In this document: piece after piece, positions 3,378 through 59,274 of the stretch
Layout of the letters: each line of letters opens with the position of its first letter
Position numbering within the stretch: the stretch's first letter is position 1
From: an uncultured Bacteroidales bacterium
GTDB lineage: Bacteria; Bacteroidota; Bacteroidia; Bacteroidales; VadinHA17
NCBI GenBank assembly: GCA_963825935.1
Contig: CAWGUN010000013.1
Coordinates: 948,340-1,012,339 of the forward strand
Length of the DNA stretch: 64,000 nucleotides
Direction of reading: 5' to 3'
The notes under the pieces: generated by a model
The model's database searches: none
Seen by the model: the letters and a program-made list of their open reading frames with translations, nothing else
Told to the model about the DNA's origin: nothing
Program-made: the position numbers and the translations under genes

Positions 3378-3470
3378 AAATCGTTCCATTTATCCCTTTT
3401 CTTCACATACCTTTTCTCAATGTATAGTAATATTAAAATTGTTACTTTTATGAACTTTTAGTTTCCCTTT

Positions 3471-4580
3471 ATGGAAAAAAACAGTACAAGGCTCGTTTCC
3501 CTCGACATATTCAGGGGAATGACTATCGCCTTTATGATAATCGTAAACACCCCCGGAAGCTGGAATTACGTCTATGCACCCTTAAGTCATGCCAGGTGGC
3601 ACGGTTGCACTCCGACAGACCTGGTGTTCCCATTCTTCCTTTTTATTGTTGGTGTTTCAACCTGGTATTCACTTAAGAAATACGGACACGAGGTCAATTC
3701 AGGTTCAATAATCAGGATACTGAGACGGACAGTTACAATATTTGCCCTTGGCTTGTTTCTTGCGATATTCCCGCACTTCAGCAGGGACTATTCAGCTCTT
3801 CGTATTATGGGGGTTCTTCAGCGTATTGCTTTAGCCTATTGTGTCGGTTCACTTATCTGCCTGACTGTCAAGCGTGATTATTTGTGGATAGTCATCGCAG
3901 GCATTTTGCTGTTTTACTGGGGTTTACTTGCTTTATTCGGGGGCGCAGATCCCTATAGCCTTGAAGGAAATATTGCACCCAAAGTGGATGCTGCGATACT
4001 TGGTGTCAACCATCTTTACAAAGGATTCGGGATTCCTTTCGACCCCGAAGGAATCTTAAGCACCTTACCGGCAGTCTGCACAGTTTTGATCGGTTATTAT
4101 ATTGGAGAAATAATCGGAAAAGGTCCAGCTAAGGGTAAAACTGTCCTTAAGCTCATTCTGTTTGGTACGGCATCTGTCGGCCTGGGTCTTTTGTGGAGTA
4201 TATGGTTCCCACTCAACAAACCGTTATGGACTAGCTCCTATGTCTTGTTTACCGCCGGAATTGGAATGGGGGTCCTTGCCCTGATCTATTTTATTGCCGA
4301 TGTGATCAAATTTCAGAAATGGGGTTCATTTTTTCTGGTCTTTGGCACCAATGCCCTTTTCGCATTTTTTCTTGCAGGTGTATGGACAAGGCTTATGCTG
4401 TTGTTTAAAGTAACTTCCGGCAGCTCAAAGGTGACTCTCTATACGTGGATTTATGAACATATGTGCGTACCCGTGGCTGGCAATATGAACGGCAGCCTGA
4501 TGTTCGCATTGATGCAGGTTTTGTTTATCTGGCTGATAGCGTTGGTTCTATATAAAAAGAAAGTATTTATCAGGTTATAA
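3471..4580 (+). CDS. HGSNAT-like (DUF1624/DUF5009) polytopic membrane acyltransferase
   Basis: N-terminal RLVSLDIFRGMTIAFMIIVN motif, followed by roughly 10 hydrophobic helices. Confidence 0.65.
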   Translation: MEKNSTRLVSLDIFRGMTIAFMIIVNTPGSWNYVYAPLSHARWHGCTPTDLVFPFFLFIVGVSTWYSLKKYGHEVNSGSIIRILRRTVTIFALGLFLAIFPHFSRDYSALRIMGVLQRIALAYCVGSLICLTVKRDYLWIVIAGILLFYWGLLALFGGADPYSLEGNIAPKVDAAILGVNHLYKGFGIPFDPEGILSTLPAVCTVLIGYYIGEIIGKGPAKGKTVLKLILFGTASVGLGLLWSIWFPLNKPLWTSSYVLFTAGIGMGVLALIYFIADVIKFQKWGSFFLVFGTNALFAFFLAGVWTRLMLLFKVTSGSSKVTLYTWIYEHMCVPVAGNMNGSLMFALMQVLFIWLIALVLYKKKVFIRL

Positions 4581-4582
4581 GA

Positions 4583-5617
4583 ATGGATGAAATAAGCATT
4601 ATATCAGCTGGTTACAGAAAATATTACGGAGTTTCTGAAACGAAAATTGTCCCATTGCCACGATCAGGATCGGACCGGAGATATTACAGGATTTTTAGCG
4701 GCGATAAAACAATTATCGGAGCCTATAATGCAAACCGGGAGGAAAATGATGCTTTTGTGGGATTCACTGAACATTTCCTGAAAAAACAGCTGCCGGTACC
4801 TGAGGTCTTTTGTTATATGAAGGAAAGTGATATCTATTTTCTGGAAGACCTGGGTGATATTAATTTGTATACATGGCTCCATAAGAAGCCGGATATTTCA
4901 AACTTTGACAGCAGTACAATGGCTCTTTACCGTAAAGTGCTTGACAATCTGATACTCTTTCAGACAAGGGGAATCGAAGGACTGAATCTGGACCTTTGCT
5001 ATCCCCACAGGAGCTTCGACCGCCAGTCAATGATGTGGGATATGAATTACTTCAAGTACATGTTATTGAAGCTTCTGGCAGTTCCTTTTAATGAAAGGCT
5101 CCTTGAGCATGATTTCAACTCCCTGGCCGATTATCTTCTGGAAACAGGGCAGGATTATTTTCTTTACCGGGATTTTCAGACTGCAAATATCATGATCGTA
5201 GGGGAGGAGCCATGGTTCATCGATTATCAGGGTGGAAGAAAAGGGGCCCCACAATATGATGTGGCATCATTACTGTACGATGCAAAAATCCCGATGTCGC
5301 AGACCGACAGAGAGGAGCTCCTGTGGTACTATATCGAAAAATTTTGTTCTGCCAGCAATGAGGACAATCAAAAATTCAAGGGATATTATGACGGGTTCAG
5401 CATGATCAGGATTATGCAGGCTCTTGGCGCCTTTGGATTCAGGGGTTTGTATGAACAGAAACCAACTTTTACAGATAGTATAGTTCCGGGTGTATTTCTC
5501 CTGAATGAGGTTATATTTTCTGCTGAGAATCATGTTAAGCTTCCTGAATTGTATAAGACTGTCAGATCAATTCAAAGTACTCCGACATTTCAGCAACTGG
5601 TATCAGCCACTCATTAA
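4583..5617 (+). CDS. amgK: Aminoglycoside-phosphotransferase-fold sugar kinase, AmgK-like (anomeric MurNAc/GlcNAc kinase)
   Basis: APH-type catalytic loop YRDFQTANIMI and IDYQGG. It lies directly upstream of a MurU-like nucleotidyltransferase. Confidence 0.6.
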   Translation: MDEISIISAGYRKYYGVSETKIVPLPRSGSDRRYYRIFSGDKTIIGAYNANREENDAFVGFTEHFLKKQLPVPEVFCYMKESDIYFLEDLGDINLYTWLHKKPDISNFDSSTMALYRKVLDNLILFQTRGIEGLNLDLCYPHRSFDRQSMMWDMNYFKYMLLKLLAVPFNERLLEHDFNSLADYLLETGQDYFLYRDFQTANIMIVGEEPWFIDYQGGRKGAPQYDVASLLYDAKIPMSQTDREELLWYYIEKFCSASNEDNQKFKGYYDGFSMIRIMQALGAFGFRGLYEQKPTFTDSIVPGVFLLNEVIFSAENHVKLPELYKTVRSIQSTPTFQQLVSATH

Positions 5618-5627
5618 TACCTGACCA

Positions 5628-6368
5628 ATGAAAGCAATGATACTGGCAGCAGGAAAGGGTACCAGGCTCGGGAAGCTCACTGAAAACATTCCAAAAGTTC
5701 TTCTCCAGATAAATGGTAAAAGCCTGCTGCAGCATGCTGTTGAAAAATGCACCTCGTCGGGGTTTGATGATATTATCGTTAATGTTCACCATTTTGCCGG
5801 TATGGTTGAAGATGAAATTAACAGGATGAACAGAATGGGTTTCCGGTTGACTATTTCAGATGAAAGGAAAGAACTGCTTGAAACCGCAGGAGGACTTTAT
5901 AAAGCAAGACATTTTTTTGACAAGGAACCATTCCTATTATATAATGCTGATATAATTACGGATTTTCCGATTTCTGATTTACTTGCACTTCAATTCGAAA
6001 AGAAAGGCCTTGCAACACTGGCAGTGAGGAATCGTGAAGGTAAGAGGTATTTTATGGTTAACCGGGAAGGTCTTTTGAAGGGGTGGTGCAACACTTCAAC
6101 GGGTGAGAGAATTATTGCAGGTGATGAAAATGAAGAGCTGAGCAAAATAGCTTTCTCAAGCATCCACATAATTAGTCCCGAAATTTTCAATTACATGAGT
6201 GAAGGAATCTATACCATGACGGCATTATACATGCAGCTTGCATCTGATCATAAAATTCACACGCTCCTTCATGATGACGGGTACTGGTTCAATGTTGGTA
6301 CTCCTGAAATACTCGAAGAAGCCGGGCTGTTCCTTAAATCGCATCCACCGGTTGTCGGTAGCCGGTAA
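5628..6368 (+). CDS. murU: Sugar-1-phosphate nucleotidyltransferase, MurU-like (MurNAc-alpha-1-P uridylyltransferase)
   Basis: MILAAGKGTRLG nucleotidyltransferase signature, about 245 aa, paired with the AmgK-like kinase. Confidence 0.6.
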   Translation: MKAMILAAGKGTRLGKLTENIPKVLLQINGKSLLQHAVEKCTSSGFDDIIVNVHHFAGMVEDEINRMNRMGFRLTISDERKELLETAGGLYKARHFFDKEPFLLYNADIITDFPISDLLALQFEKKGLATLAVRNREGKRYFMVNREGLLKGWCNTSTGERIIAGDENEELSKIAFSSIHIISPEIFNYMSEGIYTMTALYMQLASDHKIHTLLHDDGYWFNVGTPEILEEAGLFLKSHPPVVGSR

Positions 6369-6374
6369 CCGGTT

Positions 6375-7820
6375 TCACAGCTTCCAGAAGCTCTTTGAAA
6401 AAAGAGTAAAAATTGCGAAAATCTCCAGTCGGCCTATTAACATCAGTAGGCTGAGAATAAAAAGACTTATTTCCGGCATGTTAGCAAAGTCATATATTGG
6501 ACCTGCGTTTCCGAGTTCCGGACCGATATTGCCAAGAGATGAGGCAACTGCACTGGCTGAAGTTACCGGGTCGCTGCCGGTAAGAACTATAATTGCTGTG
6601 CCGACGAGGAAAATGAAAAGGTACAAAACAATAAAAGAAAGTACCGATAAATTAGTTTTTTCCGGCAAAGGATTATTATTAAGCCTTATTTGCAAAATAA
6701 TATTGGGATGAAGAAGCTTCCTGAAAATCAGCTTGATGTTCTTAAGGGCAACGAGATGCCTTCCCATCTTTATGCTACCGGTAGTGGAACCTGTGCTGGC
6801 GCCGGCAAAAAGCAATAAAAATATCAATATAAGGGCTTCAGGAGGCCAGAGCAGATAATCGGTTGTTTTATAGCCGGTAGTTGTTATCATTGAGATCGCA
6901 TGGAAGAATCCTTCTCTGAAGGCTGTACCGGGGGTCTTATTTGCATGGATTATAAGAATAATACTCAGAAAAACCGAAGCAATAATGGTTATAATTATAT
7001 AAAACCATAATTCTTCATTTTTTCTTATTTTATTGAATTTAAACTTTACCAGGTAATAGTAAATAACAAAGCTGACTCCTGCCAGAAACATAAAGATCAT
7101 TACAATGTACTGGCTGTAGGATGAGTAATATTGAAGGCTGTTGTTCCGTGTTGAAAAACCCCCGGTTGCGATTGTGCCAAAAGAGTGGCAGATACTGTCA
7201 AACAGGGTCATATCACCCACGTTCAGTAAAATAGTTTCAGCCAGAGTAAGCCCGACATAAACGATCAGTATCCTAAACCCGACTGCCAGGGTTTTCGGAT
7301 GGATCTTCTCTTTCATTGACGACTCGAGGCTGAAAAGCTGATAACCTGAAATCTTAAGAGTTGGCAGGATAATTATTACTGTGACAATTATGCCGATCCC
7401 TCCAATCCAGTGCGTGAGACTTCTCCAGAAAAGAATCGAAAAGGAAAGGCTTTCAACATCATTCACAATAGTTGAACCGGTTGTTGTAAAACCTGAGGAG
7501 GATTCAAAAAAAGCTTTGATAAATGAAGGAATTGATCCGGAGATAATATACGGCAAAGTTCCCAGCAGGATAAAAAGTATCCAGGATAGTGCAACAGCTA
7601 CATAACCATCACGATTACTTATATCATGCAGATCCGCTTTTATGCTGATGGTTTTGAATGCAATATAAAGCGTTCCGGTTATTAAGGATGACCACAGAAA
7701 CGGCAGCAGTGATTCTTTATATATCAGTGCAACAGGCAGGCATGCTAGAAATGAGATTGTCTCAACCAGAAGGATTGTTCCTAATATTTTGATAATAATC
7801 AACGGATTGATCAGCTTCAT
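6375..7820 (-). CDS. trkH: TrkH/KtrB family potassium uptake membrane subunit
   Basis: Four selectivity-filter-like repeats (GFTTTGST, ATGGFS, TTTGYK, TGSTTGSIK) in a polytopic membrane protein. Confidence 0.85.
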   Translation of the reverse strand: MKLINPLIIIKILGTILLVETISFLACLPVALIYKESLLPFLWSSLITGTLYIAFKTISIKADLHDISNRDGYVAVALSWILFILLGTLPYIISGSIPSFIKAFFESSSGFTTTGSTIVNDVESLSFSILFWRSLTHWIGGIGIIVTVIIILPTLKISGYQLFSLESSMKEKIHPKTLAVGFRILIVYVGLTLAETILLNVGDMTLFDSICHSFGTIATGGFSTRNNSLQYYSSYSQYIVMIFMFLAGVSFVIYYYLVKFKFNKIRKNEELWFYIIITIIASVFLSIILIIHANKTPGTAFREGFFHAISMITTTGYKTTDYLLWPPEALILIFLLLFAGASTGSTTGSIKMGRHLVALKNIKLIFRKLLHPNIILQIRLNNNPLPEKTNLSVLSFIVLYLFIFLVGTAIIVLTGSDPVTSASAVASSLGNIGPELGNAGPIYDFANMPEISLFILSLLMLIGRLEIFAIFTLFSKSFWKL

Positions 7821-8043
7821 TACCTGCTATCTGAATTTCAGGGTACAAATATAATCAGAAAAAGTTTGGTTATTCTCCTCATGTAAACCAGAAGGGATAA
7901 TCTGTTTAATATGATAAAAATCTATTGATTGGTCATTTTTATGTCTTATATTTGAGTCAGGCTTTAAAAATTCCGGAATTCAATCAGCCAGGCGTTAATA
8001 TCTATAAACTATTTAAGTTCAATTTGTTATTACTACCAGGGAA

Positions 8044-9238
8044 ATGAGAAAAGTTTTAATTATCGGAGCCGGAGGAGTCAGTTCAGTGGTTGTTCACAAG
8101 ATGGCCTCTCTTCCGGAGGTTTTCAGTGAAATAATGTTAGCCAGCCGGACAAAATCAAAATGTGATGCTATTGCAAAAAAAATCGGCAATAACAGGGTTC
8201 AGACCGCTCAGGTCGATGCGGATAAAGTGCCCCAGCTTGTAAAGCTGATAAACTCTTTCAAACCCGACATTATTGTAAATGTGGCTTTGCCTTACCAGGA
8301 TCTTCATATAATGGATGCTTGTCTCGAAACCGGCGTTGCATACCTTGATACTGCGAACTATGAGCCTCTTGAGGAAGCAAAATATGAATACAGCTGGCAG
8401 TGGGCCTACAGAGAAAGGTACAAAAAGGCAGGTATTACTGCAATACTGGGCTGCGGATTTGATCCGGGAGTGACATCAATTTACACAGCATATGCTGCAA
8501 AGCATCATTTTGATGAACTCAATTATCTCGATATTGTTGATTGTAATGCCGGAGACCACGGAAAACCTTTTGCAACAAATTTCAATCCTGAGATAAACAT
8601 CAGGGAAGTAACACAAAAGGGTAAATACTGGGAAGACGGAAAATGGATCTACACAAAGCCTCACCAGATTCATAAGCCATTGAATTATCCTGATATCGGA
8701 CCAAAGGAATCTTACCTTATTTATCATGAGGAGCTGGAATCACTGGTAAAAAATTTCCCGACTCTTAAACGTGCCAGATTCTGGATGACATTCGGACAGG
8801 AGTATCTGACACACCTCAGAGTTATCCAGAATATTGGAATGGCAGGTATTGAACCTATAATGTTCGATGGGAGAGAAATAGTCCCGATTAAGTTCCTGAA
8901 GGCAGTATTACCTGATCCGGGTGAGCTCGGCGAGAACTATAAGGGATGGACATCCATAGGCTGCCGTATCAAAGGAATAAAAAACGGGAAAAGTAAAACC
9001 TATTACATCTACAATAACTGCAGCCACGAGGCAGCCTATAAGGAAACAGGAGCCCAGGGCGTTAGTTATACCACAGGAGTACCGGCTGCCATTGGCACAA
9101 TGATGTACCTTAATGGAATCTGGAAAAAACCGGGGGTTTTCAATGTTGAAGAGTTTGATCCTGATCCCTTTATGGAACAGCTAAATCTGCTCGGGATTGC
9201 CCTGGGTGGAACTGCATGATGTTGACCTGGAATTATAA
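8044..9238 (+). CDS. Carboxy(nor)spermidine synthase/dehydrogenase (saccharopine dehydrogenase family); the last ~15 codons are displaced into the +1 frame
   Basis: Rossmann motif VLIIGAGGVSSVV. The called ORF ends at 9219 as ..LNLLGIALGGTA. The +1 frame from 9194 reads GLPWVELHDVDLEL and stops at 9236-9238, which looks like the authentic C-terminus. Confidence 0.75.
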
Positions 9239-9242
9239 AAAT

Positions 9243-9281
9243 GGTACAAGGTGCAACGGTACGACGGTGCGACGGTGCGAC
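9243..9281. repeat. Octanucleotide tandem array (GGTRCRAC), about 5 units
   Basis: ggtacaa ggtgcaac ggtacgac ggtgcgac ggtgcgac, located between the dehydrogenase and decarboxylase genes. Confidence 0.9.
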
Positions 9282-9319
9282 AGTTTAAAGGTTTTAATTC
9301 AGAGTTTTATCTGGTAAAT

Positions 9320-9365
9320 CCCCTCCTGGGAGAGCTTGTCCCGCGAAGCGGGAGGTGGGGGTGGG
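9320..9365. repeat. GC-rich palindromic (REP-like) element
   Basis: cccctcc..tcccgc-gaa-gcggga-ggtgggggtggg. The core hairpin is at 9339-9353, flanked by C-tract and G-tract arms. Confidence 0.6.
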
Positions 9366-9389
9366 TTTAAAATAAATATAACTCTTCTT

Positions 9390-10526
9390 ATGATTGATTA
9401 CGATATATTACCATCCCCCTGTTATGTGATTGATGAAGAACGATTCAGGAAGAATCTTTCACTCATTAAGCATGTTGCGGATGAATCAGGGATTGAGATT
9501 ATCCTGGCATTCAAAGGATTCGCCATGTGGGGTGTTTTTGATATCCTGAAAGAGTATTTTTCCGGGGCTGCCGCCAGCTCGGTTCACGAAGCCAGGCTCT
9601 GCTTTGAACAAATCGGCTCTCCGGCTCATTCATATTCTCCTGTCTACAGGGAAAATGATTTTGAATCAATACTCGGCTTCAGTTCACATATAACTTTCAA
9701 TTCCCTTGGTCAGTACTCGAAATATTCCGGTCGGCTCAAAAAATATGACAGGAAGATCTCTGCCGGATTAAGGATCAATCCTGAATTCTCTGAGGTAAGT
9801 CACACTATTTATAATCCTTCTTCACCGGGATCAAGACTGGGTGTTACTGCTGATGATCTGAAAGCCGGCTTGCCGGAAGGTGTTGAAGGACTCCATTTCC
9901 ATGTTCTCTTTGAATCTGATTCTTATGCACTGGAAAAGGTGCTTCAGGTAGTTGAGACCAAATTCGGAAGATTCTTTACGGGACTCAAATGGATCAATAT
10001 GGGAGGAGGACATCTGATAACCAGGAAAGGGTATGATACTAACCACCTGGTTAGGATACTGAAAGAGTTTAAGAAGAGAACAGGATTGCATATTATTCTG
10101 GAACCAGGTAGTGCCTTTGCCTGGGAAACCGGTGAACTGACAGCTACTGTTGAAGATATTGTTGTAAATCAGGGTATTAAAACTGCAATACTTGATGTCT
10201 CATTTACCGCACATATGCCCGACTGCCTCGAAATGCCCTATATGCCAAAAATCATGGGAGCAACCGGTCCTGTTGAAGGGAAACCAACTTACAGGATGGG
10301 TGGCAATTCCTGCCTTTCCGGAGATTTTATGGGTGACTGGTCATTTGAAAAGGAGCTTAAACCCGGTGACAGAATTGTCTTTATGGATATGATCCACTAC
10401 ACGATGGTTAAGACAACCACTTTTAACGGTGTGCAGCATCCGTCTATCGGAATCTGGACGAAGGAAGGGGAATTTCGGTTATTAAAGGAATTCGGTTATA
10501 ACGATTATAAAAACCGCCTGTCATAA
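9390..10526 (+). CDS. nspC: Carboxy(nor)spermidine decarboxylase (PLP fold-type III)
   Basis: MIDYDILPSPCYVIDEE start, with INMGGGH and ILEPGSA motifs. The ORF-track start at 9336 only adds a translation of the GC-rich palindrome. Confidence 0.85.
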   Translation: MIDYDILPSPCYVIDEERFRKNLSLIKHVADESGIEIILAFKGFAMWGVFDILKEYFSGAAASSVHEARLCFEQIGSPAHSYSPVYRENDFESILGFSSHITFNSLGQYSKYSGRLKKYDRKISAGLRINPEFSEVSHTIYNPSSPGSRLGVTADDLKAGLPEGVEGLHFHVLFESDSYALEKVLQVVETKFGRFFTGLKWINMGGGHLITRKGYDTNHLVRILKEFKKRTGLHIILEPGSAFAWETGELTATVEDIVVNQGIKTAILDVSFTAHMPDCLEMPYMPKIMGATGPVEGKPTYRMGGNSCLSGDFMGDWSFEKELKPGDRIVFMDMIHYTMVKTTTFNGVQHPSIGIWTKEGEFRLLKEFGYNDYKNRLS

Positions 10527-50750: not shown

Positions 50751-51326
50751 TTATTGTTTTTCAGCTCTTTTGGATGAACCTGAATTTATCATTTCGAGGT
50801 AGTGAATTATTTCGTTAAGATAAGTTTCAACCTGTACTGGTTCTTTTAGTTCCATCATCAGCTCGAAGCTTGAGGATCCGGGTTCACCGTCTGAAAGCCC
50901 CACTTTAAAACTGGCAGATGATAACGATGTAATGTATTTTAGAGGGAATACTTTATCAAAATTGAGATCAATTAAAATGTCGAATTTGTTATTGATAAAG
51001 AAATCTGATTCTGCTGATACAGGCAGGTAAAAGAAATTCACTTCCTTTCTCCTGATGCAGGAAAGATATCTTAATGCTGTATATTGATCAGGGAGCTCTT
51101 TCCCCGGATAATATCCGATTATTTTGACATCAATATTCCTGTCATGCATTCTCTGATAAAACTTCGACAGGCTGATAAAATCCCGGGTCTTTGAGGCATC
51201 CCATACAATACCTATGGATTTTACCTGTAAAATGTTTGAGTAATGTACCTTACGCCTGGTCCTTGCAATTTTTTTTGAAAGAATTGAATTCCCTAATTTA
51301 ATTCTTGTATTTCCGAATAATTCCAT
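50751..51326 (-). CDS. Hypothetical protein
   Basis: 191-aa ORF packed tightly between ligA and dapA. No motif was recognised. Confidence 0.4.
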   Translation of the reverse strand: MELFGNTRIKLGNSILSKKIARTRRKVHYSNILQVKSIGIVWDASKTRDFISLSKFYQRMHDRNIDVKIIGYYPGKELPDQYTALRYLSCIRRKEVNFFYLPVSAESDFFINNKFDILIDLNFDKVFPLKYITSLSSASFKVGLSDGEPGSSSFELMMELKEPVQVETYLNEIIHYLEMINSGSSKRAEKQ

Positions 51327-51372: not shown

Positions 51373-53382
<2,010 letters not shown>

Positions 53383-53421: not shown

Positions 53422-54576
53422 TCAACTCCATACGCCCTTAATTTCTTTCCCGCATTTATTGCATTTTCCTCCGGTAATATTGTTTGTTGTTATCCTGTAT
53501 CCCTGACGGGCAACAACAATAGTGCCGCATGATGGGCATTTAGTATCAGATATTTCATCTCCCGGCACATTTCCGACGTAGACATACAATAATCCTTCGC
53601 TAATTGCAACCCTGGCAGCATTTTTAAGAATCTCCACCGGGGTCGGAGGCAGCTGTTCAAGTTTATACATAGGGTAGAATCTGCTGATGTGCACCGGAGT
53701 ATCCTTAAATCCGTTTTCGCTTAGCCATTTATACATCCTTCCGATTTCATCAATATTATCACTCCATGTCGGAACAATAAGATTTGTTATTTCAAGCCAG
53801 ACTCCCATGTCTTTGTATATTTTAAGGGAATCAAGCACCGGCTGTAATTTCCCTCCGGTAAGCCTGAGATATGTGCTGTCGCTGAACGACTTCAGATCAA
53901 TATTGGCAGCGTCAATAACTGAACAGAGTTTTTTTAAAGGTTCCGGATTAATATAACCGTTCGATTTTACAATATTCCTGACCCCGGCCTTTCGGGCAAT
54001 AACTGCAGTTTCATAAGTATATTCATAGAAAGTTGTAGGTTCTGAATACGTATAGGCAATCGACCGGCAGTTATTTTTAATTGACTCCTGAACAACCTTT
54101 TCCGGCATCAGGTCAAAATTGCGGGTCTTGTCGGGACTGGTTTGCGAGATGGTCCAGTTCTGACAGTTAAGGCAGACAAGGTTACACCCTGCAGTGGCAA
54201 TAGAATATGCCCTGGATCCGGGAAAAAAGTGATACATAGGCTTTTTCTCAACCGGATCGACATTGGCAGAACACGGATTACCATATGCCATTGTCCACAG
54301 TTTGGAATCATGAACCCTGCGATTATTGCATTTACTGGTTTCCCCCTCTTTGAGAACGCATTCATTCGGACAGATCCTGCACATTATCCCCCTGGGCGTC
54401 TCTTCCTGAAACATGGCAATCTTTTTATAGATACCCTGTTCATCAGAAATCAGACTTTTCATGACAGCAGATCCCGGCATGCAGGCAATTCCTGCAGAAA
54501 ATGCAAGGCACTTTTTCACGAAGATCCGTTTGCTGTTATCAAAATTCTTTTCAGTCATAGTGAATGAAGGATGCAT
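53422..54576 (-). CDS. AmmeMemoRadiSam-system radical SAM enzyme
   Basis: AGCNLVCLNCQNW (CxxxCxxC), an N-terminal auxiliary Cys motif CRICPNEC..C, and a C-terminal Cys pairs CPSCG..C..C. The genomic context includes Memo and AMMECR1 domains. Confidence 0.75.
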   Translation of the reverse strand: MHPSFTMTEKNFDNSKRIFVKKCLAFSAGIACMPGSAVMKSLISDEQGIYKKIAMFQEETPRGIMCRICPNECVLKEGETSKCNNRRVHDSKLWTMAYGNPCSANVDPVEKKPMYHFFPGSRAYSIATAGCNLVCLNCQNWTISQTSPDKTRNFDLMPEKVVQESIKNNCRSIAYTYSEPTTFYEYTYETAVIARKAGVRNIVKSNGYINPEPLKKLCSVIDAANIDLKSFSDSTYLRLTGGKLQPVLDSLKIYKDMGVWLEITNLIVPTWSDNIDEIGRMYKWLSENGFKDTPVHISRFYPMYKLEQLPPTPVEILKNAARVAISEGLLYVYVGNVPGDEISDTKCPSCGTIVVARQGYRITTNNITGGKCNKCGKEIKGVWS

Positions 54577-54591
54577 TAAAAAATAAAACTA

Positions 54592-57016
54592 CTACTTGTT
54601 CCTGGTTGTTCCAAGAAGTACACCGGCAAAAATCAGCACTGCCAGGAAAAAAATTGAGATTTGTATGCCGAAAGCAGGAAGTGCCACCCCTGAAATAAGT
54701 AAAAATCCCAGAGCTGAACCTGCAAGGTCAGCACTGTAGATTGAAGCCGGAGCTGAAATATCTTTATGAGAAGCAGTTAATTCCCTGAAGATATGACCTG
54801 TAATAAATCCCGGTAAAAGCGATAAAAAGATGATTATAATTATTGAGATTGCAGGCTGGTTTACTGATAAGATATATTTAAAAGATATTGCTGTAAGAAC
54901 ATAAAAGATCATCAGGGAAAATGCTTTGGTTTTAATTGAAAATGAATTAAGGAACTTCAGGTTTGTTCCAGCACCGGCTGCCAGTCCGGCCATTATAGCA
55001 GCAAGAATAATTCCGGTCAGCTGATACATGTTTCCTGCCGTAAGCTGTAATGCAAGCAAAATTATAAGCTCAAATCCGGCAAGTGCTGAAGCGCTGCAAT
55101 ACATAATCAGGTTGCTTCTCCTTACTGCCAGAACAGGTATTGCGAATGCCAGGATTAATAGAATTATTGCGGGTATCTTCTCATCCAGATCCTTACTGAA
55201 ATTATATGATTGAAAATGGAAGCAGGCGATTGGAAAAGCCGACCGGTTCACCCTTGTATTCTTATCTAGAACGGAAAGAACTTTTTCTGTCTTATTCTCT
55301 GTAAGATCATCAGAAAGGTAATCGCAGCTTACATATAAATTTTTAATTCCTCTTTTCTCTGTCAATGCGCAAAAATCAATAGATACTTCTTCATCCGAAG
55401 CTATAAAATACATCTTGTTGCCTGCAACGGGTTTTACATACCTGAATACAGATGTCAGGCTGTTGAACACTGAGGAATACAGGTTAACAGATTCCTGGTT
55501 CAGATACTCTTCACCGGGTCCGGGTGAGCACATGAAAACTCCACCCGGAATAAGCGTTTTCTGTACACTTATAAAAAAATCTGTCGTATAAAATCTGTTC
55601 AGTGAAAGAGTGGACGGAGGAGGAAGAAGCAGGATAACAGCATCGATCTTTTCTCCCTTACTCATTATGTAATGGTATGCATCTTTATTCTCAACATATA
55701 GTCTGAACAGGCCCGTTGTAAGGTTTTCTCAGTGCTGATATTGCAAGAGCCGGATCGCGTTCTATAAAAAGTATCTTCTTAACCGGGTATTTCAGCACCT
55801 CCTGAAGATGAGTTTCAAGCGAACCTGAGATCAGCAGTACCTTTTCAGGATTTGGTCTCTGGAGCAATGCGTAATGTATATCTTCTTCCCTTTCAATAAC
55901 ATCATTTTTATAAGCCAGAAGCCTTTGATTGTAATACACACTTTCTTCGCCCGAGTATTCCCCATGTGTTATATTTCCATATGGTGTATCTTTTGTTCCG
56001 GTCACATTCACTCCGGGTAACAGGAACTTCCTGAATGCAATATCCGGGTCAGAAATAATAATAATTGTGAGCAGGATCAGAAACAGTGTTTTTGCAATGA
56101 TCTTTGTATTTGCGGATTTTAACCAGAATGTCAATATTGTATATGCAAATAAGAGAATTATAACTATCATTAAAAGCTTGTAGGTGTTAAGCAATCCTGA
56201 AGTCAGTGCTGATAAAAGAATGCCGGCAGTAATCCCTCCGGTCGTTTCAATTGAAAAGGATCTTCCGGGGCTGAGATTATTTGATTCACCGGCATAACCA
56301 ATTAATTTTATAAATGTGAATCCGGAAACCATGCAAAAAGGCAGAAGCAGCAGGAAGGTAAAGATCATGCTCACGAGCAGGGAAGGAGTCTCGCCTGTTT
56401 CTAAAAATAGTCCCGATAAAATGACCATCAGGAAAAGAGATATGAAAGGGCTGAGCGAAAAGATCAGGTTGATTTTGCGGATGTCGTTTAAAGCTGATTT
56501 GGCTGCAATAGCTGCTCCTGAAGCAGATGCAATCAGCCATGAGCCAAGGAATATTCCGGTTATAAGCTCATATCCTCCTGAAATGTTCATCACCTCTCTG
56601 ATAAGCAGAAACTGAATTGCGGTACCGGCAAAACCTATAATAAAAAGGTTTGAAATAATCGATCCTGGACCAGGTTTTTGAAACTCCCGGCGAGCTTGTA
56701 TAATTTCTGATCCCGAAAATATTTTTCCAAAATATGACAGATGCCAGATAAAATGGAAAATGCCGGTCAATGCCAGACAAACTCCAATTTCTACATGCCA
56801 TTTGAGGATTATTTTTACAACCGGAATATCCCATTTGAAATTAATCTGAAGGGCCATGAACAGGCCAGCCAGTGCAGTAAAAAGAAAAGTAACCGCCAGG
56901 ATAATATTCCATAGCTTTTTATGGAAAGCCTGGGAATAGAGTCCGAACCGATAAAAGATGAAGCTGAGTAAGTAAAATAAGGAGACTGTTATAACTGTCC
57001 CGATGATATGATACAT
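54592..57016 (-). pseudogene. Polytopic membrane protein with an embedded spermidine-synthase-like (class I SAM/dcSAM) domain, split by a +1 frame break near 55695-55705
   Basis: ORF 57016-55691 ends ..VLLISGSLETHLQEVLKYPVKKILFIERDPALAISALRKPYNGPVQTIC*. The +1 frame continues YVENKDAYHYIMSKGEKIDAVILLLPPPSTLSLNRFYTTDFF, which is ORF 55665-54592. Both halves carry many hydrophobic helices. Confidence 0.7.
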
Positions 57017-57018
57017 TG

Positions 57019-58527
57019 TTACTTTTTATTTTCTTCAAGTACCAGACCTTCGTAAATAGATATTTCAGCACTCTTCCACCCATCCCAACCCAGACCTGCT
57101 TTGTCCCTGGATGTATAACCCAGGAATTGTTCGACAGTCCATCCGTTCTCGGTTGCAACCTGGGGCAGCATGGTTCCTGACCGGAAATCTTTCTTTATAT
57201 AGATCCCGTGTTTGCCCAGAACTATTTCACTGATATCATTGATTTTTTCCATGGGTCCCAGGACTGTTATCTCGAAATCGACCTTTTCATATTCTTCTTT
57301 AGTGAGTGCCGGGAACCGGGGATCTTCAAAAGCAGAAGATAATGCTGAAGCTTTTACAGCGTCATAAAGAGGGACGGGTGAGCTGAATCTTCCAATACAA
57401 CCCTTTAAGACTCCATTGATTTTCAAAGTGACGAAAGCACCAAACTGTTGTTTAAGAGCTTCAGGTATTTTCTTTTCATCGATTACATAATCCTTATTAT
57501 TAAACAGCTTTGATCTTATGCTGTTTCTTGCTATCTCAAATAATTTCTTCTTTTCATCCTCAGTAAATTTTACCTCTATGGGTGACTTTTCCGCTGACCG
57601 GGAGCTTTGGGTCTTTTCAATCACTGCAATAGCATTATAACCTACCACTCTGTCTTTCTCTCCATATGGCGAATCGCCGGAATTACAGTAATCAATCTTT
57701 TTCAGTGCGAGGTTTTTGTTTCCTTCAATCATATCAAGCAGCATAAGGCCGGATGTCCAACCACACATACTGGTTACCAGACCAGGGATATTTTTCGATG
57801 AGTTCTTTTTAAGAACAGCAAGAAATGTGGCCGGATCTCCTGAAATCAATCCGGCAGCGGTGAGATTATCTGCTTCGACAGCATCATTATATGAAGGGTA
57901 ATGTGAAAAATCACTGCTGATTACAAACAAATTATCGGGAGTGAACCAGGGCTTCAGGGCCTCGGCAATTGCTTTTATAGTTCCGGTGCTGGTGGTTCCG
58001 ATTATTATCGGAACAATCCTGGGTACTGTGGTATAATAGTACTGGATAAAAGGTATCTGAACTTCAATACAATGATCCTCGAGATGTGCATCTACGGGAT
58101 AATTAAAAACTTTATTATCATTTTTCAATTTATTGGCGATATCCCTGTTAACTATTGCCTTGCCGAGCGGAGTTATAAAATCTCCGGTATTATAGACGGA
58201 GGCTCCATCAAATGCCATCACATGGCTTGATCCTATTACGAAAATGTTATTGTATTCTGAGTTTTTCGAAGTCGCTGAGAAAGCAGAAGCTGCAATCTTC
58301 CCTGAGTAGATATATCCTGCATGAGGAGTTATAACAGCTCTGACTTTCCATTTCTCCTGCACTTTTTTGCAATCTGCGAAAAAATTTGAAAGATCTTTTA
58401 TCAGTGTTTCTTTGTCAGCAGCATAAAAACTTCCTGCTACAACCGGCCTTCTGTCAGTTGATTTATTCTGGGAATTTAGTTCCATAATACTGAAGATTGA
58501 TATCAATACTGTTAATACGATTCTCAT
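57019..58527 (-). CDS. Memo-like (AmmeMemoRadiSam protein B) fused to AMMECR1-like (protein A) domain
   Basis: N-terminal half: VVAGSFYAADKETL, ITPHAGYIYSG. C-terminal half: GAFVTLKINGVLKGCIGRF, FEDPRFP. The N-terminus is hydrophobic and signal-like. Confidence 0.75.
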   Translation of the reverse strand: MRIVLTVLISIFSIMELNSQNKSTDRRPVVAGSFYAADKETLIKDLSNFFADCKKVQEKWKVRAVITPHAGYIYSGKIAASAFSATSKNSEYNNIFVIGSSHVMAFDGASVYNTGDFITPLGKAIVNRDIANKLKNDNKVFNYPVDAHLEDHCIEVQIPFIQYYYTTVPRIVPIIIGTTSTGTIKAIAEALKPWFTPDNLFVISSDFSHYPSYNDAVEADNLTAAGLISGDPATFLAVLKKNSSKNIPGLVTSMCGWTSGLMLLDMIEGNKNLALKKIDYCNSGDSPYGEKDRVVGYNAIAVIEKTQSSRSAEKSPIEVKFTEDEKKKLFEIARNSIRSKLFNNKDYVIDEKKIPEALKQQFGAFVTLKINGVLKGCIGRFSSPVPLYDAVKASALSSAFEDPRFPALTKEEYEKVDFEITVLGPMEKINDISEIVLGKHGIYIKKDFRSGTMLPQVATENGWTVEQFLGYTSRDKAGLGWDGWKSAEISIYEGLVLEENKK

Positions 58528-58609
58528 AATTAAATTACAAAATACCGTAATAAAGTTATGCCAAAAAAATGAAGAATGAAGTGTTTGGAAGGAATAGTTT
58601 GAAGAGTGA

Positions 58610-58984
58610 TCAGATCAGCACCATTGACTCTTTCAGGACCTCTCCCTGATCACCAGTACCATAAAGTTTGATAGCTAGGTTTACAGACGGTGATCCTATC
58701 ATATCAATGACCGGACTAAGGACGTCCTTCAGATCATCTGACTCCAGCTCATCGAACTCTTCGATATCGAAGTAGAGATGTATCATAAGGGTGTTTTCAG
58801 GTCCCTTGATGGAGCTCAGGACTTTTGTGATTTTTGCAATCCAGATGGAAGATGTAGTGTTAAAATATTCAAGGTTAAGCCTCAGGTTCGTTATTCTCCG
58901 TGGACATTCAACATATTGTTTGACCCAGCTTAATATTTTTTCATAAAAAAAAGCTGCATTTTCCGGTATAGACCTTCCTGACAA
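58610..58984 (-). CDS. DUF1987 (SiaC-like) protein, start codon unclear
   Basis: GRSIPENAAFFYEKILSWV...LNLEYFNTTSS is typical of DUF1987. The reading frame stays open and family-like for 27 more codons upstream, to about 59065, with no ATG, GTG or TTG. Confidence 0.6.
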   Translation of the reverse strand: MSGRSIPENAAFFYEKILSWVKQYVECPRRITNLRLNLEYFNTTSSIWIAKITKVLSSIKGPENTLMIHLYFDIEEFDELESDDLKDVLSPVIDMIGSPSVNLAIKLYGTGDQGEVLKESMVLI

Positions 58985-59274
58985 AATAAGCTCCCCGGTA
59001 AGATGATTAAAATCGATCTGCGGCGTTTTTTTTGTAGGCTCAACAAATATATTTTTAAGCTCGTCCGTGGTGAGTAGTATTATTTATAGAGTACAATTTA
59101 AATTCCCCGGTTCAAAAATATAATAACTTATTCGTTATGTTTATCACCTTCATCAAAAAGAAATGTCAGGTAGTCAAATAATTCAATCTGTTAGTATAAA
59201 GAATGAAAATATCGCACTAACACAAGCTCCCGGTTTTTGATACCATTTTGTTTTATGTCAATATTTTAAAATAT

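What the first reader, a model, noticed from the sequence alone, without database searches (positions are those of the whole stretch)
53422..58984. AmmeMemoRadiSam-type operon built around a ~800-aa polytopic spermidine-synthase-like membrane protein, with export-like N-termini
Seen in the sequence:
- All genes are on the minus strand, in the order DUF1987 (58984-58610), then one 502-aa ORF that fuses a Memo-like half (ITPHAGYIYSG) to an AMMECR1-like half (GVLKGCIGRF).
- After a 2-nt gap comes a membrane protein. Its centre is a spermidine-synthase/class-I transferase-like fold (VLLISGSLETHLQEVL..FIERDP..DAVILLLPPPST), flanked on both sides by many hydrophobic helices.
- After a further 15 nt comes a radical SAM enzyme (AGCNLVCLNCQNW).
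- The Memo-AMMECR1 ORF opens with a signal-peptide-like MRIVLTVLISIFSIMELNS.
- The radical SAM ORF opens with a Tat-like KRIFVKKCLAFSAGIACMPGSAV.

Established knowledge: AMMECR1, Memo and this radical SAM subfamily recur as a three-gene set (the TIGRFAMs 'AmmeMemoRadiSam system'). Its substrate and role are unknown.

Inference: a membrane-embedded aminopropyl/methyl-transferase-like partner lies inside the triad, and the N-termini look envelope-directed. Together these would point to a membrane-bound or periplasm-facing substrate. The window already encodes the carboxyspermidine dehydrogenase/decarboxylase route to spermidine (8044-10526), so this SpeE-like protein is unlikely to be the housekeeping synthase.
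Basis: partly seen in the sequence, partly recalled or inferred. Interest (0 to 1): 0.7.

Follow-up and report, generated by a model that had tools for sequence, protein, structure and literature searches.

The report
Envelope-directed Memo–AMMECR1–radical SAM cassette
A three-gene set conserved in uncultured Bacteroidota joins the Memo/AMMECR1/radical-SAM trio, whose function is unknown, to a transporter-like membrane protein and appears to direct the machinery to the cell envelope; in this genome the membrane gene is broken by a one-base insertion.

Summary
The genes are real and the family assignments hold. TIGR04336, TIGR04335 and TIGR04337 all score above their curated cut-offs. The "~800-aa" membrane protein is two ORFs here (441 + 357 aa), split by one extra base near 55697. 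More than 700 relatives are intact at ~807 aa, and dN/dS (0.13) shows the break is recent or an assembly error. The cassette Memo-AMMECR1 fusion → membrane protein → radical SAM recurs in 80 related genomes. It also recurs in 8 of 8 distant loci (27–31% identity) with unrelated flanks, so the linkage is functional. DUF1987/SiaC is only a lineage-specific neighbour. The membrane protein has an MFS-type fold: two homologous 6-TM bundles plus a central helical hairpin. The SpeE-fold domain sits at the tip of that hairpin, and three arguments place it in the periplasm. This lineage has lost the aminopropyltransferase catalytic residues. Memo-AMMECR1 carries a Bacteroidetes "Q-rule" signal peptide (81/81). 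The radical SAM enzyme carries a Tat-like leader that is always Lys-Arg (83/83), and canonical amrS genes lack it. Best reading: an envelope-directed variant of the AmmeMemoRadiSam system with a dedicated transporter partner. Where the radical SAM enzyme sits is unresolved.

The parts
57019..58527 (-). Memo-AMMECR1 fusion protein (AmrB-AmrA type), 502 aa
   Evidence: TIGR04336 222 bits and TIGR04335 156 bits, both above cut-off. Pfam Memo and AMMECR1. PDB relatives are MEMO1 and the archaeal AMMECR1 proteins 1zq7/1vaj. Motifs PHAGY, GSSH, SSDFSH, MCGW and GCIG are present.
58471..58527 (-). Cleavable-type signal peptide MRIVLTVLISIFSIMELNS, followed by Gln
   Evidence: The leader precedes the Memo HMM start (residue 26) and the MEMO1 alignment start. 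It is conserved in 81/81 loci, with Gln at about residue 20 and Ser/Ala at -1 in 72/81. This matches the Bacteroidetes Q-rule (PMC5837995).
57622..58452 (-). Memo domain (residues 26-302)
57049..57546 (-). AMMECR1 domain (residues 328-493), including LKGCIG
55691..57016 (-). Membrane protein, N-terminal fragment (441-aa ORF, ends at a premature TGA)
   Evidence: It corresponds to residues 1-439 of the 807-aa family protein.
54592..55698 (-). Membrane protein, C-terminal fragment. The reading frame is open from 55698 (YVENKDAYHYI...), and the listed ORF starts at the ATG at 55665.
   Evidence: It corresponds to residues 441-807 of the family protein.
55694..55700 (-). Site of the single-base insertion (+1 frameshift) that splits the membrane gene
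   Evidence: DNA alignment to L089 and L001 shows one extra base. dN/dS is 0.129 and 0.137 for the two halves against 0.135 for the neighbouring gene.
56720..57016 (-). Optional N-terminal three-helix module with conserved His32, His74, His88, His92, Trp36 and Asn37
   Evidence: AF2 helices 2-24, 29-60 and 65-99. Present in about half of 136 family representatives, with H74, H88 and H92 at 99-100%. No Pfam or PDB match.
56123..56668 (-). First 6-TM bundle (residues 117-298)
   Evidence: AF2/DSSP. Homologous to the second bundle by hhalign, 98.3% probability, E=2.6e-14.
56054..56113 (-). TM7, first arm of the central hairpin (in to out)
55189..56053 (-). SpeE-fold soluble domain (residues 322-609), predicted periplasmic. 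It spans the frameshift. The motifs read ISGSLET, IERD, KDA and LLLPPP.
   Evidence: PF01564. PDB hmmsearch hit 6bq2, E=2.7e-15. Foldseek TM-score 0.65-0.70 to SpeE and thermospermine synthases. Motif analysis. Topology.
55129..55188 (-). TM8, second arm of the central hairpin (out to in), followed by RR on the inner side
54610..55119 (-). Second 6-TM bundle (residues 633-802)
   Evidence: hhalign repeat. Separate AF2 model with pLDDT 82.5. All 50 top Foldseek PDB matches are MFS transporters.
53422..54576 (-). AmmeMemoRadiSam radical SAM enzyme (AmrS type), 384 aa (378 aa if it starts at the Met at 54558)
   Evidence: TIGR04337 336 bits, cut-off 220
54457..54576 (-). Tat-like leader of the radical SAM enzyme. 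The SKRIFVKK motif is at 54511-54534, followed by a weakly hydrophobic stretch (CLAFSAGIACMPGSAV) and a basic residue.
   Evidence: The leader precedes the HMM start (residue 62). It is conserved with K-R in 83/83 loci, plus L090 and L092. Canonical amrS genes lack it.
54163..54186 (-). CX3CX2C radical SAM cluster motif (CNLVCLNC)
58610..59062 (-). SiaC/DUF1987 gene. It is a neighbour specific to this lineage and not part of the conserved cassette.
   Evidence: PF09345 60 bits. The equivalog model NF038265 is not met, 37.8 against 150. Coding extends upstream of the TTG at 58984. The gene is absent from L009 and L043 and from all 8 distant loci.
59113..59120 (-). Candidate Bacteroidetes-type -7 promoter box (TATTTTTG) upstream of the SiaC gene. 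It is the only intergenic one on this strand before ligA.
   Evidence: The evidence is weak: the window-wide count of this motif equals chance.

Best explanation
This is an envelope-directed variant of the AmmeMemoRadiSam system. Its conserved core is three genes: a Memo-AMMECR1 fusion, an MFS-fold inner-membrane protein, and the AmrS-type radical SAM enzyme.

Shown or strongly predicted:
- The fusion protein is exported by Sec and cut by signal peptidase I.
- The membrane protein is built as [optional 3-helix His module]-[6 TM]-TM7-[SpeE-fold domain]-TM8-[6 TM], so the SpeE-fold domain projects into the periplasm.
- That domain keeps the adenosine-binding positions (Glu419, Asp445). In this lineage it has lost the residues that define aminopropyl transfer, so it is not a spermidine synthase.

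Inferred:
- The MFS body moves a small, probably cationic metabolite (SAM-, dcSAM- or polyamine-like) across the inner membrane and hands it to the periplasmic domain.
- There, Memo-AMMECR1 acts on an envelope-located substrate.
- The radical SAM enzyme is brought to the same site by its Lys-Arg Tat-type leader, either exported or held as an uncleaved anchor.

In this genome the membrane gene carries a one-base insertion that is either an assembly error or a very recent inactivation.
For: Family assignments are above cut-off.

Linkage:
- Every assessable locus of 80 related genomes has the cassette.
- So do 8 of 8 distant loci with different flanks.

Topology, three independent arguments:
- K/R counts are 13.0 on one face and 1.6 on the other, and the soluble domain lies on the poor face.
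- The two bundles are parallel homologous repeats separated by exactly two helices.
- The bundle matches only MFS transporters, whose bundles start and end in the cytoplasm.

SpeE fold and motifs:
- The fold is confirmed.
- GGGDGG has become ISGSLET and D-x-x-D-P has become L-L-P-P-P, while E419 (90%) and D445 (96%) are kept family-wide.

Leaders:
- 81/81 signal peptides follow the Q-rule (PMC5837995 and PMC10653852).
- 83/83 rSAM leaders carry K-R, with the layout of a Tat signal.
- A K-R pair serves a Tat-dependent Fe-S protein, the thylakoid Rieske protein (PMC3471235).
- The rSAM leader tracks the membrane gene. Seven canonical amrS genes align only from residue 64, and the three inspected start directly at the domain. 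No membrane gene lies beside those three.

Selection: dN/dS of 0.13 shows the gene was under selection until very recently.
Against: - No localisation has been measured. All placements are sequence predictions made without SignalP, TatP or TMHMM.
- The Tat motif is never Arg-Arg, although neighbouring proteins in one carrier genome use canonical RR. No Tat HMM matches, and no tat genes lie in the window.
- To my knowledge, no SAM pool or low-potential reductant is known in the periplasm, which a periplasmic radical SAM enzyme would need.
- Foldseek E-values for the MFS match are weak (0.02-0.15), and Pfam MFS_1 does not match.
- A Segatella system has a signal-like leader on Memo-AMMECR1 but none on AmrS and no membrane gene. 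So exported Memo-AMMECR1 can coexist with a cytoplasmic rSAM.
- The transported molecule and the final substrate are unknown.
- In this window the membrane gene is interrupted.
Confidence: 0.5

Rival explanations
1. Split-compartment model. The radical SAM enzyme stays in the cytoplasm, held at the inner face of the membrane or of the MFS protein by its K-R leader. It either modifies the Memo-AMMECR1 pre-protein before Sec export, as anaerobic sulfatase-maturating enzymes do for exported sulfatases in Bacteroides, or it makes a small molecule. The MFS protein then exports that molecule to the periplasmic SpeE-fold domain and to Memo-AMMECR1.
For: - Lys is invariant in place of the first Arg (83/83), while canonical RR signals occur on neighbours in the same genome.
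- This model needs no periplasmic SAM or reductant.
- The family is related to PflA-type activases that act on proteins.
- Segatella has a leader on Memo-AMMECR1 but a leaderless AmrS.
- The anSME precedent comes from my own knowledge and was not checked here.
Against: - The leader has all other hallmarks of a Tat signal, and K-R works for a Tat-dependent Fe-S protein.
- The leader appears exactly where the membrane gene appears. That is easy to explain if the enzyme leaves the cytoplasm, and less easy otherwise.
- The hydrophobic stretch is too weak to act as a membrane anchor by itself.
- The Segatella amrS is C-terminally truncated and sits next to transposase debris, so that system may be decaying.
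Confidence: 0.3
2. In this particular genome the cassette is dead. The one-base insertion is real, and the membrane gene is a fresh pseudogene. This is compatible with either functional model for the family.
For: - The frameshift is in the sequence and is not in a homopolymer.
- Every other gene examined in the window is intact, so the assembly does not look generally error-prone.
- The SiaC gene also lacks a canonical start codon.
Against: - Both halves are free of further stops.
- Both show dN/dS of 0.13-0.14, the same as the neighbouring gene.
- All three partner genes are intact.
- A single-base indel is a common assembly error.
Confidence: 0.3
3. The membrane protein is an ordinary membrane-bound spermidine or polyamine synthase that merely sits next to the triad, with no functional link.
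For: JGI and NCBI call relatives 'spermidine synthase' or 'fused MFS/spermidine synthase'. PF01564 matches.
Against: - All SpeE equivalog models score far below cut-off, for example TIGR00417 at 18-35 bits against 249.55.
- The catalytic Asp residues and the dcSAM-specific acid are absent.
- The domain is predicted to be periplasmic.
- The window has its own nspC route.
- The gene order is kept in 8 of 8 distant loci with unrelated flanks.
Confidence: 0.03
4. The export-like N-termini are artefacts of start codons called too far upstream.
For: The rSAM ORF has internal Met codons at residues 7, 39 and 55.
Against: - Amino-acid conservation of both leaders holds across 80+ genomes and across distant lineages.
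- Intergenic gaps would grow from 15 to more than 120 nt.
- The Memo-AMMECR1 leader has no alternative downstream start before the domain.
Confidence: 0.02

Closest known systems
AmmeMemoRadiSam system (TIGR04335 AmrA, TIGR04336 AmrB, TIGR04337 AmrS)
   Same: All three family models are met above cut-off and the genes are adjacent. AmrB-AmrA fusions followed by amrS also occur in canonical systems in Segatella and Ideonella.
   Different: The canonical amrS genes inspected have no N-terminal leader and no membrane gene between amrB/A and amrS. Here an MFS/SpeE-fold membrane gene is inserted, and both soluble partners carry export-type leaders.
'Fused MFS/spermidine synthase' (NCBIfam NF037959) and membrane-type polyamine aminopropyltransferase (NF002956/PRK03612)
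   Same: These are the best-scoring NCBIfam models. They share an N-terminal polytopic region followed by a SpeE-fold domain. NCBI names distant relatives 'fused MFS/spermidine synthase'.
   Different: Scores are below cut-off: NF002956 at 24-145 bits against 472; NF037959 at 29-39.7 bits against 40, with no hit for this lineage. This family has a second 6-TM bundle after the SpeE-fold domain and often an extra His-rich module. In this lineage the catalytic motifs are gone. Neither reference family has, to my knowledge, a tested function or topology.
Spermidine and thermospermine synthases (SpeE, ACL5; PDB 1uir, 6bq2, 1inl, 2o07)
   Same: Same fold, including the N-terminal beta-hairpin sub-domain (TM-score 0.65-0.70). 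Shared positions are YHE/H (E377, H381), the ribose-binding acid (E419) and the adenine-binding Asp (D445).
   Different: GGG(D/E)GG has become ISGSLET (family consensus ISGGISG). Catalytic D-x-x-D-P has become L-L-P-P-P (family consensus (N/D)-L-P-(E/D)-P). The domain is inserted in a membrane protein and predicted to be periplasmic.
POT/PepT-type MFS transporters with two extra central helices (HA/HB), e.g. PepTSt 4xni/4d2c
   Same: They are top structural matches of the membrane half. They share the plan of two 6-TM bundles with a two-helix hairpin between them.
   Different: There is no detectable sequence similarity. Here a 290-residue enzyme-fold domain sits at the tip of the hairpin. 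No transport activity is known.
Tat-dependent Fe-S proteins with a Lys-Arg signal-anchor (plant thylakoid Rieske protein)
   Same: An Fe-S passenger with a K-R pair in place of R-R in a Tat-type leader (PMC3471235).
   Different: Export of the rSAM enzyme is untested. No radical SAM enzyme is known to me to act outside the cytoplasm.

Membership tests
AmmeMemoRadiSam system | AmrB (Memo-type) protein matching TIGR04336 above cut-off | tested here: met
   222.2 bits against a cut-off of 26, residues 26-302
AmmeMemoRadiSam system | AmrA (AMMECR1-type) protein matching TIGR04335 above cut-off | tested here: met
   155.9 bits against a cut-off of 99, residues 328-493
AmmeMemoRadiSam system | AmrS radical SAM enzyme matching TIGR04337 above cut-off, with CX3CX2C | tested here: met
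   336 bits against a cut-off of 220. CNLVCLNC lies at residues 131-138.
AmmeMemoRadiSam system | The three components are encoded together | tested here: met
   Same strand with gaps of 2 and 15 nt around the inserted membrane gene. Conserved in 80 + 8 loci.
Polyamine aminopropyltransferase (SpeE) | Equivalog HMM (TIGR00417, NF002010, NF002956) above cut-off | tested here: not met
   18-66 bits against cut-offs of 249-472, for the window fragments and for intact P0001
Polyamine aminopropyltransferase (SpeE) | SpeE fold (beta-hairpin N-domain plus Rossmann-type domain) | tested here: met
   Foldseek TM-score 0.65-0.70 to 1uir, 6bq6 and 1inl. PF01564 scores 23.2 against 22.9.
Polyamine aminopropyltransferase (SpeE) | Acidic residue in GGG(D/E)GG that selects dcSAM | tested here: not met
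   Leu in the window; Ile/Leu/Val in 99 of 136 representatives
Polyamine aminopropyltransferase (SpeE) | Catalytic Asp residues of the D-x-x-D-P loop | tested here: not met
   L463 and P466 in this lineage. Family-wide counts are N74/D10/L14 at the first position and E44/P36/D27 at the second.
Polyamine aminopropyltransferase (SpeE) | Aminopropyl transfer from dcSAM to a polyamine | not testable with these tools
   Needs an enzyme assay
MFS transporters | Two homologous 6-TM bundles in the same orientation | tested here: met
   hhalign 98.3% probability, E=2.6e-14, over 175 columns. Helices from AF2.
MFS transporters | Structural match to solved MFS proteins | tested here: inconclusive
   All top 50 matches are MFS, with TM-score 0.49-0.58 over about 185-200 of 201 residues. 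However, E-values are 0.02-0.15.
MFS transporters | Sequence match to Pfam MFS models or to NF037959 | tested here: not met
   No MFS Pfam hit at E<=5. NF037959 scores 39.7 against 40 for distant P0143, with no hit for this lineage.
Tat (twin-arginine) substrates | Consensus (S/T)-R-R-x-F-L-K with two arginines | tested here: not met
   S-K-R-x-F-(L/I/V)-K in 83/83, never R-R. No TAT_signal HMM hit.
Tat (twin-arginine) substrates | Long n-region, weakly hydrophobic h-region, basic c-region, cofactor-bearing passenger | tested here: met
   Leader of about 40-55 residues; CLAFSAGIACMPGSAV followed by MK; Fe-S enzyme
Tat (twin-arginine) substrates | Tat machinery present in the genome and Tat-dependent export | not tested
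   No tatC-like ORF in the 64-kb window. The rest of the genome is not available.
Sec/signal peptidase I substrates of Bacteroidetes (Q-rule) | n-h-c signal peptide with a small residue at -1 and Gln at +1 | tested here: met
   81/81 have Gln at about residue 20. Position -1 is Ser in 66 and Ala in 6. Position -3 is T/I/L/S/V. Rule as in PMC5837995.
SiaC (DUF1987) partner-switch phosphoprotein | Pfam PF09345 above cut-off; equivalog NF038265 above cut-off | tested here: inconclusive
   PF09345 is met, 60 against 24.5. NF038265 is not met, 37.8 against 150. The gene does not travel with the cassette outside this lineage.

The most novel reading that the evidence does not exclude
This would be the first radical SAM system that works outside the cytoplasm. 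The AmrS enzyme would be exported, with its Fe-S clusters, through Tat by a dedicated Lys-Arg leader. The MFS protein would exist to supply it. Its transporter body would export SAM, or a related adenosyl cation. Its periplasmic SpeE-fold domain, which keeps the adenosine-binding residues but not the catalytic ones, would receive SAM and present it. The optional His-rich three-helix module would pass electrons across the membrane. This would explain why the membrane gene and the rSAM leader appear together and are both absent from canonical systems.
Probability: 0.25. Interest if true: 0.9.

Novelty: new variant of a known kind. Interest (0 to 1): 0.62.

Why it matters
Memo and AMMECR1 are conserved from archaea to humans and are linked to human disease, yet their molecular function is still unknown. 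The same is true of their prokaryotic radical SAM partner.

This variant adds three concrete handles:
- a predicted location, the cell envelope;
- a dedicated transporter-like partner whose soluble domain has a ligand-binding fold that can be assayed;
- a clean comparative contrast, since leaderless canonical systems lack the membrane gene.

If the radical SAM enzyme really is exported, this would overturn the working assumption that radical SAM chemistry is confined to the cytoplasm. It would also imply SAM export. The topology argument further suggests that the wider class annotated 'membrane-bound spermidine synthase' or 'fused MFS/spermidine synthase' may carry extracytoplasmic SpeE-fold domains and be mis-named.

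Tried and rejected
- **Programmed frameshift:** rejected. More than 700 relatives, including two close ones aligned at DNA level, read straight through.
- **General assembly sloppiness:** not supported. RsmI and all other genes checked are intact.
- **SiaC/DUF1987 as a system component:** rejected. It is absent from L009, L043 and all 8 distant loci.
- **Synteny within the 80 related genomes as proof of linkage:** set aside, because the housekeeping genes argS and ligA are equally syntenic. Distant representatives were used instead.
- **L092 168-aa gene as a detached His-module:** rejected. It is an unrelated lipoprotein.
- **His-rich module identity:** no Pfam or PDB match. The COX7B hits at E~0.1 reflect TM composition.
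- **Lipobox in the rSAM leader:** rejected. The Cys is not conserved.
- **K-R as a habit of the lineage's Tat signals:** rejected for L082, where neighbours use R-R. A second K-R leader in the window (an MR/MLE enzyme) remains uninterpreted.
- **Hidden membrane gene next to canonical amrS:** none found.
- **Source genome look-up by exact protein:** not on record.
- **Literature:** six papers mention 'AmmeMemoRadiSam' only in passing. The key comparative paper (Burroughs et al. 2019, J Biol Chem 294:10211) is cited in PMC7159879 but is not held. I therefore cannot exclude that it already lists this membrane partner. From memory, its abstract links Memo contexts to nucleotide-base and isoprenoid modification.
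- **Periplasmic radical SAM:** no paper found on this.
- **Membrane-bound SpeE proteins:** no paper found on these.

Full report
**What is in the window**

Four consecutive minus-strand genes lie between ligA (51373-53379) and a divergently transcribed argS:
- a SiaC/DUF1987 gene;
- a 502-aa Memo-AMMECR1 fusion;
- a polytopic membrane protein with a SpeE-like centre;
- a radical SAM enzyme.

The curated models confirm the triad. TIGR04336 scores 222 bits (cut-off 26), TIGR04335 scores 156 bits (cut-off 99) and TIGR04337 scores 336 bits (cut-off 220). Pfam agrees.

The window encodes carboxynorspermidine synthase (E=3e-120) and NspC (509 bits, above cut-off) at 8044-10526.

**The main correction: the membrane gene is split**

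The membrane protein is not one ORF here. It is split into 441-aa and 357-aa ORFs in different frames. A DNA alignment with the two nearest relatives shows exactly one extra base in CAGACTATATGTTGAG, near 55697. Removing it gives an 807-aa protein collinear with more than 700 intact relatives of 805-810 aa.

Against the nearest relative, the two halves have dN/dS of 0.129 and 0.137. The neighbouring Memo-AMMECR1 gene has 0.135. Selection therefore acted until very recently, and the break is either an assembly error or a fresh mutation. It is not a programmed frameshift.

**Is the membrane gene really linked to the triad?**

A scan of one genome per species found 213 genomes with a relative. 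The 80 fetched are all uncultured Bacteroidales-type MAGs. All of them have Memo-AMMECR1 upstream and the rSAM downstream wherever the contig allows. Because argS and ligA are just as syntenic there, that is one lineage and weak evidence.

I therefore searched 1.84 billion cluster representatives with a profile. This gave 2,609 representatives at E<=1e-30, in two architectures:
- about 805-850 aa, with an N-terminal module of about 115 aa;
- about 705-730 aa, without it.

I looked up eight distant members (27-31% identical to the window protein), including a 'Bacteroides sp. SM23_62_1' MAG and an Ignavibacteriales MAG.
- All eight have a Memo-AMMECR1 fusion next door.
- Six have the rSAM downstream.
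- One contig ends before the rSAM position, and one locus lacks the rSAM.
- The flanking genes are unrelated in every case.

That is real evidence of functional coupling. SiaC is absent from all eight and from two of the related loci, so it is only a neighbour.

**Anatomy of the membrane protein**

An AlphaFold model of the closest intact relative (pLDDT 79, pTM 0.78) shows, in order:
- three helices;
- seven helices;
- a beta-rich and Rossmann-type domain;
- seven helices.

The soluble domain matches spermidine and thermospermine synthases (Foldseek TM-score 0.65-0.70; hmmsearch E=2.7e-15 to 6bq2).

hhalign shows that residues ~116-299 and ~630-805 are homologous 6-TM repeats (98.3% probability, E=2.6e-14). 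The plan is therefore [6 TM]-TM7-[SpeE-fold]-TM8-[6 TM].

A separate model of the C-terminal half (pLDDT 82.5) matches only MFS transporters in its top 50 PDB hits (PepT/POT, FLVCR, VMAT2, NorA and others). TM-scores are 0.49-0.58, though E-values are weak at 0.02-0.15. NCBI names distant relatives 'fused MFS/spermidine synthase', and NF037959 reaches 39.7 bits against a cut-off of 40 for one of them.

**Topology**

Three arguments place the SpeE-fold domain in the periplasm:
1. Loops on one face carry on average 13.0 Lys+Arg and loops on the other face 1.6. The soluble domain is on the poor face.
2. The two bundles are parallel repeats separated by exactly two helices, so whatever lies between those helices is on the face opposite the bundle termini.
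3. MFS bundles begin and end in the cytoplasm (established knowledge of the fold), as in POT transporters with their HA/HB hairpin.

**Is it a spermidine synthase?**

No.
- All SpeE equivalog models are far below cut-off.
- In the alignment to solved enzymes, GGG(D/E)GG is ISGSLET. The family consensus is ISGGISG, and the dcSAM-selecting acid is replaced by Ile/Leu.
- The catalytic D-x-x-D-P is L-L-P-P-P. Family-wide this is (N/D)-L-P-(E/D)-P.
- The ribose-binding acid (E419, 90%), the adenine-binding Asp (D445, 96%) and the YHE/H positions (E377, H381, 99-100%) are kept.

The domain probably still binds an adenosyl-type ligand but does not do aminopropyl transfer, at least in this lineage.

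**The N-termini**

The Memo-AMMECR1 leader (MRIVLTVLISIFSIMELNS|Q) precedes the start of the Memo model and of the MEMO1 alignment. In 81/81 loci a Gln follows a signal peptide of about 19 residues, with Ser or Ala at -1 in 72. This is the Bacteroidetes Q-rule for signal peptidase I substrates (PMC5837995, PMC10653852). Distant loci show the same pattern.

The rSAM leader has the layout of a Tat signal: a long n-region, S-K-R-x-F-(L/I/V)-K-K, a weakly hydrophobic Gly/Ser/Ala-rich stretch and a basic residue after it. The pair is Lys-Arg in 83/83 loci and in the further distant loci. In one carrier genome, neighbouring Gfo/Idh/MocA and AP-endonuclease-2 proteins use canonical SRREF and TRRRF. 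The Lys is therefore specific to this enzyme. A Lys-Arg pair is known to serve the Tat-dependent thylakoid Rieske Fe-S protein (PMC3471235).

**Contrast with canonical systems**

Seven plasmid-borne amrS genes align to the window enzyme only from residue 64.
- In Ideonella, both AmrB-A and AmrS start directly at their domains.
- In Trichlorobacter, AmrS starts directly at its domain.
- Neither locus has a membrane gene nearby.
- In Segatella (Bacteroidota) the AmrB-A fusion has a signal-like leader, but AmrS has none and there is no membrane gene. That amrS is C-terminally truncated beside transposase remnants.

The rSAM leader therefore tracks the membrane gene. The Memo-AMMECR1 leader may be older, and it shows that an exported Memo-AMMECR1 can coexist with a cytoplasmic rSAM.

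**How it most likely works**

Shown or strongly predicted:
- a three-gene module;
- secreted Memo-AMMECR1;
- an MFS-fold membrane protein with a periplasmic, non-catalytic SpeE-fold domain.

Inferred:
- The MFS body carries a small cationic metabolite outward. Invariant acidic and polar positions E150, Q657 and D763 lie in or next to helices.
- The periplasmic domain binds that metabolite.
- The triad acts on an envelope substrate.

Where the rSAM sits is open. It may be exported through Tat, which raises the problem of SAM and reductant supply. The membrane protein could be the answer to that problem. Alternatively it may be retained at the inner face, acting before export or making the transported molecule. 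I put 0.5 on the envelope-directed module as described. I put 0.3 on the split-compartment version and 0.25 on the fully periplasmic, SAM-supplied version.

**Known or new?**

The triad is curated, and the membrane family has a generic name. I found no curated model or paper that describes their association, the leaders or the topology. The one paper most likely to mention such contexts (Burroughs et al. 2019) is not held, so prior description cannot be excluded. I rate this a new variant of a known kind. All carriers found are uncultured, which limits immediate testing.

Noticed in passing
window 994-2178 (+) and 2220-3377 (+): An NlpC/P60+SH3 lipoprotein-like peptidase is followed by an MR/MLE-family (L-Ala-D/L-Glu epimerase-like) enzyme. 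This is a YkfC/YkfB-type murein-peptide recycling pair. The epimerase opens with MKKREFIKYCGLLAGSIIVSNSLSC, a second Lys-Arg export-like leader in this genome.
   Followed up: partly
window 58985-59080 (-): The SiaC/DUF1987 reading frame is conserved for 26 codons upstream of the TTG at 58984 in all related loci. The window has no ATG, GTG or TTG there (ATA ATA CTA CTC ACC ACG GAC GAG...). Either a non-canonical start is used or the start has been lost.
   Followed up: partly
membrane protein residues 1-99 (window 56720-57016): An optional three-helix module has near-invariant W36, N37, H74, H88 and H92. It is present in about half of the wider family and has no Pfam or PDB match. It could be a heme or metal site.
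   Followed up: partly
membrane protein Cys496 and Cys549 (window about 55528-55530 and 55369-55371): Two cysteines in the SpeE-fold domain are invariant in this lineage but rare family-wide (5-9%). That would fit a disulfide in a periplasmic domain.
   Followed up: no
L085 4426-10955: In one distant locus the Memo-AMMECR1 gene is divergent and abuts cytochrome bd oxidase genes. Two tandem AmrS-type rSAM paralogues follow the membrane gene, and both carry K-R leaders.
   Followed up: partly
L037 9524-11920 (also L059, L060): A 798-aa MacB/FtsX-type permease gene is inserted on the opposite strand between the membrane gene and the rSAM gene.
   Followed up: yes
L092 5498-6004 and 8170-8866: A 168-aa lipoprotein gene and a HEPN/nucleotidyltransferase toxin-antitoxin pair are inserted inside the cassette without disrupting it.
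   Followed up: yes
L093 (Segatella hominis NZ_CP137560.1) 3408-8400: A canonical amrB-amrS pair lies on a 317-kb secondary replicon. AmrB-A has a signal-like leader. amrS is C-terminally truncated and followed by sulfatase and transposase fragments, so this system is possibly decaying.
   Followed up: partly
window 50751-51326 (-): A DUF6913 protein is encoded between a dapA-like gene and ligA.
   Followed up: no
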